Shown piece after piece: positions 21,001-22,672 of a stretch of DNA of 22,672 nucleotides. The position numbers were made by a program. The number at the start of each line of letters is the position of its first letter. Within the stretch, counting starts at the first letter, position 1. The DNA lies in the NCBI RefSeq assembly GCF_003334815.1, contig NZ_QOWO01000051.1. One strand, 5' to 3'. This DNA is from Escherichia coli (GTDB lineage Bacteria > Pseudomonadota > Gammaproteobacteria > Enterobacterales > Enterobacteriaceae).

Positions 21001-22672
21001 GCTGTCGATGCCGGAAGGTACAGACCTGAACGCCTATGCGACGCTGCTGATCGAGCGTTTCAGCAACCCGTCTCTGCGTCACCGTACCTGGCAGATTGCG
21101 ATGGACGGCAGCCAGAAGTTACCGCAGCGTCTGCTGGACCCGGTGCGTCTGCACCTGCAAAACGGCGGCAGCTGGCGTCACCTGGCGCTGGGCGTGGCTG
21201 GCTGGATGCGTTACACCCAGGGCGTGGATGAGCAGGGTAATGCCATTGACGTGGTCGACCCGATGCTGGCGGAGTTCCAGAAGATCAACGCGCAGTATCA
21301 GGGCGCAGACCGCGTGAAAGCGCTGCTGGGCCTGAGCGGTATTTTTGCCGATGATCTGCCGCAGAATGCCGACTTTGTTGGCGCGGTGACGGCGGCATAT
21401 CAGCAGCTGTGCGAACGCGGTGCGCGCGAGTGTGTGGCTGCGCTGTAACTAACTGATTACCCTACAGACTTACTGGTCAATCAAACTGATATTTGGTTGA
21501 CCAGTTTTCGTTTTTTTGCCCACCTGTACGTGCCAACTTCCAGTGCTAATGGTATAGTTTGAGATTAACGGGGGCCGTAAAATTGCCCGTTGTAGGCCGG
21601 ATAAGGCGTTCACGCCGCATCCGGCAAAAATTTGATTAACCGCACCTAACGGACACAACACCATGAAATCTGCCACCTCTGCGCAAAGACCTTACCAGGA
21701 AGTCGGGGCGATGATCCGCGATCTGATCATAAAGACGCCGTACAACCCTGGCGAACGGCTGCCGCCGGAGCGTGAAATTGCAGAAATGCTTGATGTCACG
21801 CGGACGGTGGTACGTGAAGCGCTGATCATGCTGGAGATCAAAGGGCTGGTGGAAGTGCGTCGGGGTGCCGGTATCTATGTTCTTGATAGCTCAGGCAGCC
21901 AGAACACAGACGGTCCGGATGCCAACGTCTGCAATGATGCCGGTCCTTTTGAGCTGTTACAGGCGCGTCAGTTACTGGAAAGTAACATCGCGGAATTTGC
22001 CGCCCTGCAGGCTACCCGCGAAGATATCGTCAAAATGCGTCAGGCATTGCAACTGGAAGAGCGTGAACTGGCTTCCAGCGCGCCGGGCAGCAGCGAAAGT
22101 GGTGACATGCAATTCCATCTCGCCATTGCCGAAGCGACGCATAACAGCATGCTGGTGGAGCTGTTCCGTCAGTCCTGGCAGTGGCGGGAAAACAATCCGA
22201 TGTGGATCCAGTTGCACAGCCATCTGGATGACAGCCTGTATCGCAAAGAGTGGTTGGGCGATCACAAACAGATCCTCGCCGCGTTAATCAAAAAAGATGC
22301 CCGAGCGGCGAAGCTGGCAATGTGGCAGCATCTGGAAAACGTTAAGCAACGTCTGCTGGAATTCTCGAACGTTGACGATATTTATTTTGACGGCTATCTG
22401 TTTGATTCATGGCCGCTGGATAAAGTCGACGCCTGACTTATTATAATAAGCGCAAGGGTAAACGTTCCTTGCGCTTTCTTAAATTAAGAAGTCGCAATGA
22501 GTATTACTTTGTAAATTGCAGGGTATTGTTTAGCTATCTGTATAACCTGAACGTGAGTACTCATTCTTCTCAGTGGCTATTTACCAATATAATTCGGTAA
22601 TGACTCCAACTTATTGATAGTGTTTTATGTTCAGATAATGCCCGATGACTTTGTCATGCAGCTCCACCGATT

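What the first reader, a model, noticed from the sequence alone, without database searches (positions are those of the whole stretch)
21473..21517. uxuAB terminator stem resembles a hexuronate-regulator operator half-site
The terminator stem after uxuB contains TTTGGTTGACCAG, similar to the TGGTnnACCA core of the UxuR/ExuR box seen upstream of uxuA. It lies about 150 bp upstream of uxuR, so the same DNA could act as an RNA terminator for uxuAB and a protein-binding site for uxuR autoregulation. This is speculative.
Basis: inference. Interest (0 to 1): 0.25.

Follow-up and report, generated by a model that had tools for sequence, protein, structure and literature searches.

The report
uxuAB terminator arm doubles as uxuR operator
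The hairpin that ends the E. coli uxuAB transcript carries, in its downstream arm, a complete and evolutionarily conserved UxuR-type repressor binding site for the neighbouring uxuR promoter, so one short stretch of DNA very probably serves both jobs; this is a tidy detail of a well-studied locus rather than a new kind of element.

Summary
Window 21472-21505 is a 14-bp stem with a 6-nt loop, followed by a T-tract, 24 nt after the uxuB stop codon. Its 3' arm holds an exact TGGTnnACCA core at 21494-21503. This is a full palindromic site, not a half-site.

- A weight matrix trained only on uxuR-upstream sites from other genera ranks this site first in the whole 22.7-kb window, above the two boxes in the gntP-uxuA spacer.
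- The same TG-centred box sits 53-55 nt upstream of a conserved TGnTATAGT -10 element in Escherichia, Klebsiella and Salmonella, and 34 nt upstream in Citrobacter.
- The box and spacing hold even in lineages where the box is not part of any hairpin.
- Where the hairpin exists, pairing is kept by compensatory and G-U changes. These fall mostly on the 5' arm, while the operator arm stays nearly invariant.

Best reading: the site is both an intrinsic terminator for uxuAB (as RNA) and the autoregulatory operator of uxuR (as DNA). uxuR autorepression is established in the literature. I believe the operator was predicted long ago but could not verify that here. Only the explicit overlap with the terminator may be undocumented.

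No binding or termination experiment was possible. Interest is low to moderate.

The parts
21472..21485 (+). 5' arm of the uxuAB terminator hairpin (ACTGGTCAATCAAA). It contains a degenerate mirror copy of the box (TGGTCAATCA, 21474-21483).
   Evidence: The PWM gives it only 8.4 bits. In Klebsiella this arm diverges to ..CAACTGAG while still pairing through G-U. It is therefore kept as an RNA partner, not as a second operator.
21486..21491 (+). Hairpin loop (CTGATA).
   Evidence: The loop is the variable part, both within E. coli and between Escherichia lineages.
21492..21505 (+). 3' arm of the terminator hairpin (TTTGGTTGACCAGT).
   Evidence: TTTGGTTGACC is nearly invariant across Escherichia, Citrobacter and Klebsiella; the only change is T to G at one flank position in L018.
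21489..21508 (.). UxuR-type palindromic operator ATATTTGGTTGACCAGTTTT. The core TGGTTGACCA is at 21494-21503 and the centre lies between 21498 and 21499.
   Evidence: Exact core. PWM score 21.0 bits, the top hit of the window. Orthologous boxes lie upstream of uxuR in many genera. The spacing to the -10 element is fixed.
21506..21517 (+). T-tract of the terminator (TTTCGTTTTTTT). It lies at about -59 to -48 of the uxuR promoter.
   Evidence: It is conserved as T-rich in Citrobacter and Klebsiella. A T-rich stretch persists after the box in Salmonella and in L020/L021, which lack this hairpin. Any UP-element role is inference only.
21530..21558 (+). uxuR sigma-70 promoter GTGCCA-17-TATAGT, with an extended -10 TG at 21550-21551.
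   Evidence: Promoter scan. The same hexamers are listed for the uxuB>uxuR spacer among RpoD-holoenzyme genomic-SELEX 'constitutive promoters' (PMC3946193). TGnTATAGT is conserved across genera.
21663..22436 (+). uxuR, the GntR/FadR-family repressor that is the presumed ligand of the box and the gene controlled by it.
19988..21448 (+). uxuB, the last gene of the uxuAB transcript that the hairpin terminates.
18436..18561 (.). Reference UxuR boxes in the gntP-uxuA spacer: TAAATTGGTCAACCATTGTT (18436-18455) and TGATGTGGTTAACCAATTTC (18542-18561).
   Evidence: exact cores. (16.5 and 15.9 bits). A genomic-SELEX UxuR peak lies in the gntP/uxuA spacer (PMC5934670).

Best explanation
The element is one piece of DNA with two roles, read in two different forms.

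**As RNA.** In the uxuAB transcript, 21472-21485 pairs with 21492-21505. The following U-tract then gives intrinsic termination 24-70 nt after the uxuB stop codon. This insulates uxuR from the strongly inducible uxuAB promoter.

**As double-stranded DNA.**
- The 3' arm plus its flanks (21489-21508, ATATTTGGTTGACCAGTTTT) is the palindromic UxuR-type operator of the uxuR promoter.
- That promoter is GTGCCA-17-TATAGT at 21530-21558.
- The operator is centred about 54 nt upstream of the -10 hexamer, at roughly -66 from the predicted start.
- A UxuR dimer, possibly ExuR or a heterodimer, binds there when fructuronate/glucuronate is absent and lowers uxuR transcription (autorepression).

**Likely evolutionary order.**
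- The operator is the older element. It occurs upstream of uxuR in Morganella, Providencia, Photorhabdus, Edwardsiella and Salmonella without this hairpin.
- In the Escherichia-Citrobacter-Klebsiella lineage, where uxuR follows uxuB, a complementary 5' arm arose upstream of the operator, so the operator became half of the terminator.

**Shown versus inferred.**
- Shown here: the sequence anatomy, the conservation, the covariation, the spacing and the PWM specificity.
- Taken from the literature: uxuR autorepression and RNA polymerase binding at this promoter.
- Inferred: actual occupancy of this box, and the way a repressor at -66 represses. It might block alpha-CTD contact with the T-rich tract, or act as a roadblock to residual read-through.
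For: **Terminator**
- 14-bp stem plus T-tract, z = -4.45.
- 99.2% of cells are paired across 18 sequences, against 17-50% for slid controls.
- Two pairs show compensatory changes, UA<->GC and AU<->CG.
- Within E. coli, changes fall in the loop only, in five sampled genomes.
- The hairpin is single-copy per genome, so it is not a REP.

**Operator**
- Exact core, with P about 0.003 for the spacer.
- A PWM trained only on L022-L080 gives 21.0 bits, rank 1 in the window.
- All five hits of at least 12 bits in 52.7 kb of E. coli DNA are in the gntP-uxuA, uidA, uidR and uxuR control regions.
- 35 of 80 uxuR orthologues have a match of at least 9/10 within 350 nt upstream, against 9 of 620 background windows.
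- The distance from box to -10 is 53-55 nt in Escherichia, Klebsiella, L020/L021 and Salmonella, and 34 nt in Citrobacter, which is about two helical turns less.
- In Salmonella the upstream gene is divergent. There is no 5' arm, yet the box and its spacing are kept.
- In L020/L021 a different GC-rich hairpin precedes the box.

**Arm asymmetry**
- 7 of 14 columns vary in the 5' arm, against 3 of 14 in the 3' arm.
- In four of the five pairs that change on one side only, the change is on the 5' side, giving G-U wobbles.

**Literature**
- The promoter GTGCCA-17-TATAGT is reported for this spacer (PMC3946193).
- 'Both regulators serve as autorepressors' (PMC9369180).
- RegulonDB-derived networks contain a uxuR autoregulation loop (PMC7165483).
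Against: - There is no binding, footprint, reporter or 3'-end data for this exact site in anything I could read.
- The genomic-SELEX text itself speaks of a single specific site in the gntP-uxuA spacer. Affinity of UxuR alone for this box may therefore be lower, or the figure legend refers to something else.
- A centre near -66 does not overlap the core promoter, so simple occlusion cannot explain repression.
- In Citrobacter and Klebsiella the compensatory change turns ACCA into ACCC and PWM scores drop to 7.5-15.9 bits. There the RNA pairing won over a perfect operator.
- Atlantibacter (L025) has the terminator and the -10 element but no box.
- The stem has only 5 G-C pairs.
- PWM training sites were pre-selected with the TTGGTNNACCAA pattern, so only the flanks and the central dinucleotide were learned independently.
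Confidence: 0.72

Rival explanations
1. The element is a terminator only. The TGGTnnACCA match is a coincidence or an evolutionary relic that no regulator uses, and uxuR autoregulation works through another site or indirectly.
For: - The genomic-SELEX text reports one specific UxuR site, in the gntP-uxuA spacer.
- The box lies at about -66, outside the core promoter.
- Citrobacter and Klebsiella carry ACCC instead of ACCA.
- Atlantibacter lacks the box.
Against: - No other site above 5 bits exists between 21400 and 21760.
- The box and its spacing to the -10 element are conserved in lineages without the hairpin.
- The site is rank 1 in the window with an independently trained PWM.
- The chance of an exact core in the spacer is 0.003.
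Confidence: 0.12
2. The inverted repeat is a pair of operators bound cooperatively by two repressor dimers, with centres 20 bp apart. The RNA hairpin would then be incidental, and uxuAB transcription would end elsewhere or read into uxuR.
For: - The 5' arm holds a 1-mismatch core, TGGTCAATCA, 20 bp from the main core.
- Shimada's tables write the unit as 'uxuABR'.
Against: - The 5' arm scores 8.4 bits, below every training site (minimum 13.6).
- In Klebsiella it decays to GGGTCAACTG yet keeps pairing through G-U wobbles. Those count only in RNA.
- A T-tract follows the stem immediately.
- The 5' arm is absent where no co-directional gene precedes uxuR.
Confidence: 0.05
3. The box is bound, but its main job is not promoter control. 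A repressor sitting on the terminator acts as a roadblock that stops residual uxuAB read-through before the hairpin is made. Alternatively it is an ExuR or heterodimer site, or even an activating site at a class-I-like position.
For: - The position, about -66 from the predicted start, is unusual for a simple repressor.
- ExuR and UxuR are reported to bind interchangeably and to form heterodimers.
Against: - The fixed helical phase between box and -10 across genera argues for a link to the promoter: 54 nt, or 34 nt in Citrobacter.
- This includes Salmonella, where nothing reads in from upstream.
- The PWM from uxuR-upstream sites scores the ExuR-controlled exuT/uxaC and uxaB regions below 10 bits, so the box is UxuR-type.
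- The literature calls both proteins autorepressors.
Confidence: 0.1

Closest known systems
UxuR/ExuR (GntR/FadR-family) operators of the E. coli hexuronate regulon: the gntP-uxuAB, uidA and uidR boxes, consensus AAATTGGTATACCAATTT
   Same: - It has the same palindromic TTGGT-nn-ACCAA architecture.
- Its core is the exact reverse complement of the 18441 box.
- PWM scores are comparable or higher: 21.0 against 16.5 and 15.9, and 22.6 for uidR-upstream.
- It lies upstream of a regulon gene that is known to be autorepressed.
   Different: - It is embedded in the stem of the preceding operon's terminator.
- It is centred about -66 rather than over the core promoter.
- One flank base departs from the extended consensus (ACCAG instead of ACCAA).
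Canonical intrinsic (Rho-independent) terminators of E. coli operons
   Same: It has a stem-loop plus U-tract just after the last stop codon. Pairing is maintained by covariation, and the loop is free to vary.
   Different: - The stem is long and A/T-rich (14 bp, 5 G-C pairs).
- Its 3' arm is itself a palindrome.
- The two arms evolve at different rates because one of them is also a protein-binding site.
UlaR autoregulatory site upstream of ulaR and downstream of ulaG (genomic SELEX, PMC5934670)
   Same: A single-target sugar-acid repressor gene sits next to its target operon and has its own operator in the short spacer after the preceding gene.
   Different: It belongs to a different family (DeoR). 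No overlap with a terminator hairpin is described there.
Terminator of uxuR itself, reported to contain the promoter of the 3'-UTR RNA UxuT (PMC10016265)
   Same: It is a second case in the same locus of terminator DNA carrying another transcription signal.
   Different: There the second signal is a promoter, not an operator. I did not analyse that element.

Membership tests
UxuR/ExuR operator (GntR/FadR-family box) | Palindromic core TGGT-nn-ACCA within an A/T-rich 18-20 bp box | tested here: met
   - Exact core at 21494-21503.
- 13 of 18 matches to AAATTGGTATACCAATTT, the same as accepted boxes.
- PWM 21.0 bits, rank 1 of the window.
UxuR/ExuR operator (GntR/FadR-family box) | Located in the control region of a regulon gene, at a consistent position relative to its promoter | tested here: met
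   It lies 54 nt upstream of the -10 element of GTGCCA-17-TATAGT. The spacing is 53-55 nt in four genera and 34 nt in Citrobacter.
UxuR/ExuR operator (GntR/FadR-family box) | Conserved upstream of orthologous genes beyond neutral expectation | tested here: met
   35 of 80 loci against 9 of 620 background windows reach at least 9/10. The box is conserved without the hairpin in Salmonella and in L020/L021.
UxuR/ExuR operator (GntR/FadR-family box) | Specific, effector-sensitive binding by UxuR and/or ExuR | not testable with these tools
   Only indirect evidence exists. A genomic-SELEX legend mentions two sites in the operon while the text mentions one. Tutukina 2016, Suvorova 2011 and Rodionov 2000 are not held.
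UxuR/ExuR operator (GntR/FadR-family box) | Regulatory effect on the downstream gene | not testable with these tools
   The literature states that uxuR is autorepressed. The dependence on this particular box was not seen in any paper I could read.
Intrinsic (Rho-independent) terminator | Stable stem-loop immediately followed by a U-tract | tested here: met
   14 pairs, -18.3 kcal/mol for the hairpin alone, and a tail TTTCGTTTTTTT.
Intrinsic (Rho-independent) terminator | Placed just downstream of a co-directional gene's stop codon | tested here: met
   The uxuB stop codon is at 21446-21448 and the stem starts at 21472. The 5' arm is absent where the upstream gene is divergent.
Intrinsic (Rho-independent) terminator | Pairing maintained in evolution (covariation) | tested here: met
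   99.2% of cells paired; two pairs with changes on both sides; five pairs that change on one side only, four of them on the 5' side (G-U wobbles); slid controls 17-50%. Caveat: there are only three genera, so few independent events.
Intrinsic (Rho-independent) terminator | Transcript 3' ends at the U-tract in vivo or in vitro | not testable with these tools
   No paper in the library combines uxuB with Term-seq.
REP/BIME or other dispersed palindromic repeat | Many copies per genome | tested here: not met
   The 126-nt query that excludes the REP has a median of 1 place per genome in 5397 genomes. The query that includes the REP at 21596-21625 has a median of 39.
Any curated RNA family (Rfam 15) | Covariance-model match over the hairpin | tested here: not met
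   The only match is a sub-threshold naRNA4 hit on the REP at 21595-21640. Nothing matches at 21472-21517.

The most novel reading that the evidence does not exclude
The uxuAB terminator was built in the Escherichia-Citrobacter-Klebsiella lineage by evolving a complement to the pre-existing uxuR operator. As a result, 14 nt are under simultaneous protein-binding and RNA-pairing selection, which shows up as unequal evolution of the two arms.

Beyond that, repressor occupancy of the terminator arm could actively couple the two functions. A bound repressor would block read-through polymerase before the hairpin is transcribed. The terminator's T-tract could also serve as an UP-like element of the uxuR promoter, which the repressor masks. 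I found no paper in the searchable library that describes this overlap.
Probability: 0.3. Interest if true: 0.4.

Novelty: already known. Interest (0 to 1): 0.25.

Why it matters
**Practical value.** The result pins the autoregulatory operator of uxuR to a specific 20 bp (NC_000913.3 4,554,402-4,554,421). It also warns that mutations or deletions meant to remove the uxuAB terminator will remove uxuR autoregulation as well, and the reverse. This is relevant for hexuronate biosensor and pathway engineering that reuses these parts.

**Conceptual value.** It is a clean small example of one sequence under two selective constraints, protein binding as DNA and pairing as RNA. The evolutionary signature is readable: the operator arm is frozen, the partner arm drifts through G-U pairs, and in Citrobacter/Klebsiella a compensatory change slightly degrades the operator.

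It does not open a new class of element or resolve a long-standing question.

Tried and rejected
**Literature**
- Suvorova 2011 (PMC3147527), Tutukina 2016, Ritzenthaler 1982 (PMC216320), Bouvier 2018 (PMC6304669) and Bates Utz 2004 (PMC524916) are not held. I therefore could not confirm that this exact site is the one already predicted or annotated.
- A full-text search for the site's sequence together with 'uxu' found nothing relevant.
- A search for uxuB together with Term-seq found nothing.
- Supplements of the genomic-SELEX paper and of the 2025 transcription-factor survey are not held.

**Methods set aside**
- Simple consensus counting against AAATTGGTATACCAATTT discriminates poorly. The AT-rich fim region also reaches 12-14 of 18. 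I replaced it with a PWM.

**Readings rejected**
- REP or dispersed repeat for the hairpin: it is single-copy.
- Known RNA family: no match.
- The 5' arm as a true second operator: low PWM score, and it decays in Klebsiella while RNA pairing persists.
- A promoter made by the box's own TTGACC: no -10 element lies at a suitable distance in E. coli (read from the sequence).

**Not tested**
- I looked for a CRP-like site over the box by eye and saw none.
- I did not run protein searches or structure prediction, because UxuR's identity is not in question.

Full report
**1. What is there**

The window is the E. coli gntP(-)/uxuA/uxuB/uxuR region. The uxuB-uxuR spacer is identical to K-12 MG1655. 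Window coordinate + 4,532,913 gives the NC_000913.3 coordinate.

uxuB ends at 21448 and uxuR starts at 21663. Twenty-four nucleotides after the uxuB stop codon lies a hairpin:
- 5' arm ACTGGTCAATCAAA, 21472-21485
- loop CTGATA, 21486-21491
- 3' arm TTTGGTTGACCAGT, 21492-21505
- tail TTTCGTTTTTTT, 21506-21517

The stem has 14 pairs including one G-U. The hairpin alone folds at -18.3 kcal/mol. In an 82-nt context the fold is -20.7 kcal/mol with z = -4.45, and none of 200 shuffles fold as well. The consensus terminator scan reports it. Rfam has nothing on it. It occurs once per genome, so it is not a REP. A true REP lies further down at 21596-21625.

**2. The motif**

The 3' arm contains TGGTTGACCA (21494-21503), an exact TGGTNNACCA.
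- The 22.7-kb window holds only three exact matches. The other two (18441 TGGTCAACCA and 18547 TGGTTAACCA) are in the gntP-uxuA spacer. UxuR was shown to bind that spacer by genomic SELEX (PMC5934670).
- The core at 21494 is the reverse complement of the one at 18441.
- The chance of an exact core in shuffles of the 214-nt spacer is 0.003.
- The 5' arm is complementary to a near-palindrome, so it automatically carries a degraded copy (TGGTCAATCA, 21474-21483).

**3. Is the box a real operator? Comparative test**

I fetched 80 loci encoding UxuR relatives from one-genome-per-species contigs and mapped uxuA and uxuB around them.

- *Enrichment upstream of uxuR.* Within 350 nt upstream of uxuR, 35 of 80 loci have a match of at least 9/10 to TTGGTNNACCAA. 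Only 9 of 620 equally long background windows do.
- *Same box in distant genera.* Morganella, Providencia, Photorhabdus and Edwardsiella carry (A/G)TTTTTGGTTGACCAAT. This has the same TG-centred core as the E. coli 3' arm.
- *Independent weight matrix.* A symmetric weight matrix was built only from loci L022-L080, so without Escherichia, Citrobacter, Klebsiella or Salmonella.
  - It ranks 21489-21508 (ATATTTGGTTGACCAGTTTT, 21.0 bits) first in the whole window.
  - The two gntP-uxuA boxes follow at 16.5 and 15.9 bits. The next hit scores 11.4 bits.
  - The maximum over 200 shuffled windows was 20.6, and the 95th percentile 15.5.
- *Specificity.* Over 52.7 kb of E. coli DNA (the window plus four K-12 regions), all five hits of at least 12 bits are in the gntP-uxuA, uidA-upstream, uidR-upstream and uxuR-upstream regions. 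The ExuR-controlled exuT/uxaC, uxaB and exuR regions stay below 10 bits. The box is therefore of the UxuR type.
- *Caveat.* Training sites were picked with the core pattern, so only the flanks and the central dinucleotide are independent information.

**4. Link to the uxuR promoter**

- A promoter-like site, GTGCCA-17-TATAGT with a TG extension, lies at 21530-21558.
- The same hexamers are listed for the uxuB>uxuR spacer among promoters bound by RpoD holoenzyme alone in genomic SELEX (PMC3946193).
- TGnTATAGT is conserved in Escherichia, Citrobacter, Klebsiella, Salmonella and Atlantibacter.
- The distance from the box centre to the -10 hexamer is 53-55 nt in Escherichia, Klebsiella, L020/L021 and Salmonella arizonae/diarizonae. 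It is 34 nt in Citrobacter, which is 20 nt or about two helical turns less.
- The box is therefore centred near -66 (near -46 in Citrobacter) relative to a start about 7 nt after the -10 element.
- No other site above 5 bits exists between 21400 and 21760.

**5. The box is conserved independently of the hairpin**

- In Salmonella L009/L016 the gene upstream of uxuR is divergent. There is no 5' arm, yet the box and its 53-nt spacing are kept.
- In L020/L021, where uxuB is upstream, a different GC-rich hairpin ends the operon. The box follows it, overlapping only its T-tract.
- Atlantibacter L025 has yet another terminator and no box.

**6. The hairpin is conserved as RNA**

- In 18 sequences from Escherichia, Citrobacter and the Klebsiella oxytoca group, 99.2% of pair cells are standard pairs. 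Slid controls give 17-50%.
- Two pairs carry compensatory changes. U21474-A21503 becomes G-C in Citrobacter and Klebsiella. One A-U becomes C-G in L018.
- Five further pairs change on one side only, and in four of them the change is on the 5' side. In Klebsiella the 5' arm reads ..CAACTGAG and pairs with the unchanged TTTGG through G-U wobbles.
- G-U pairs matter only in RNA. This argues against the repeat being a pair of protein sites or a DNA cruciform.
- Seven of 14 columns vary in the 5' arm and 3 of 14 in the 3' arm. TTTGGTTGACC is invariant except for one flank base in one sequence.
- Within E. coli the region is present in 5397 of 5426 complete genomes at 95% identity or more. In five sampled variants the changes fall in the loop, not the arms.
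- The compensatory U-A to G-C change turns ACCA into ACCC and lowers PWM scores to 7.5-15.9 bits in Citrobacter and Klebsiella. In that case RNA pairing was preserved at some cost to the operator.

**7. Mechanism proposed**

*Shown here:* the anatomy and the two kinds of conservation.

*From the literature:*
- uxuR is autorepressed: 'both regulators serve as autorepressors' (PMC9369180).
- RegulonDB-based networks contain the uxuR self-loop and the exuR-uxuR loop (PMC7165483).

*Inferred:*
- UxuR, or ExuR, or a heterodimer, occupies 21489-21508 without inducer and lowers initiation at 21530-21558.
- In the uxuAB mRNA the same bases pair with 21472-21485 and terminate transcription, keeping uxuR expression independent of the induced operon.
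- How a repressor at -66 acts is open. One option is interference with alpha-CTD contacts on the T-rich tract at -59 to -48. Another is a roadblock to read-through polymerase.

*Likely history:* the operator is ancestral, and the 5' arm arose in the lineage where uxuR follows uxuB.

**8. Comparison with what is known**

- The box passes every sequence-level membership test for a UxuR operator, and the hairpin passes every one for an intrinsic terminator. Binding and 3' ends could not be tested.
- From memory, and unverified here, a UxuR/ExuR site upstream of uxuR was predicted by Rodionov et al. 2000 and Suvorova et al. 2011 and is listed in RegulonDB and RegPrecise. Those papers are not in the library.
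- No searchable paper prints this sequence together with uxu or mentions the overlap with the terminator.

**9. Verdict**

- Both components are ordinary, known kinds of element in a classic locus. The overlap and its evolutionary signature are a modest curiosity.
- Interest 0.25.

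Noticed in passing
window 21596-21625 (Rfam hit 21595-21640); L001-L004 spacers: A REP-type palindrome lies between the uxuR promoter and the ATG. It gives a sub-threshold naRNA4 match of 40 bits against a gathering score of 59.5. It also causes a median of 39 BLAST places per genome. Other Escherichia lineages have a 272-nt spacer instead of 214-218 nt, with about 54 extra nt between the promoter and the REP.
   Followed up: partly
window 21628-21647: A weak box-like sequence, AAATTTGATTAACCGCACCT (4.6 bits), lies in the presumed uxuR 5' UTR, 139 nt from the centre of the main box. It could be an auxiliary site or chance.
   Followed up: no
window 18536-18561: The promoter-proximal gntP-uxuA box (TGGTTAACCA at 18547) is immediately preceded by TGTGA, a CRP-like half-site. 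The box also lies about 20 nt upstream of a TTGACA hexamer at 18572-18577. The uxuA operator therefore also sits upstream of the -35 element, as at uxuR.
   Followed up: no
L081-L084 (K-12 exuT/uxaC/exuR, uxaB, lgoR/lgoD, uidA/uidR regions): The PWM built from uxuR-upstream sites scores uidR-upstream at 22.6 bits and uidA-upstream at 12.7 bits. It gives less than 10 bits for the exuT/uxaC, uxaB, exuR and lgoR/lgoD control regions. This suggests a UxuR-type motif distinct from the ExuR-type one.
   Followed up: partly
L009 and L016 (Salmonella enterica subsp. diarizonae / arizonae), about -224 and -97 from uxuR: uxuR is not next to uxuAB but next to a divergent gene. A perfect palindrome, TTATTGGTAAACCAATAA (21.8-23.9 bits), lies 127 nt upstream of the conserved promoter-linked box.
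   Followed up: partly
L054, L056-L061, L063, L064 and L066 (Photorhabdus), about -67 from uxuR: In Photorhabdus the box TTGGTTGACCAA lies close to the ATG. Its internal TTGACC looks like the -35 hexamer of the promoter itself, so the repressor would occlude the promoter directly. This is a different geometry from E. coli.
   Followed up: no
window 22447-22480: The uxuR terminator is GCGCAAGG-loop-CCTTGCGC followed by TTTCTT. A paper reports a promoter for the 3'-UTR RNA UxuT inside this terminator (PMC10016265). I did not examine it here.
   Followed up: no
window 8763-8782: AAAAATGATTAACCATTTAT scores 11.4 bits with the UxuR-type PWM, far from any hexuronate gene. This is within the range seen in shuffles (median maximum 9.9, 95th percentile 15.5), so it is probably chance.
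   Followed up: no
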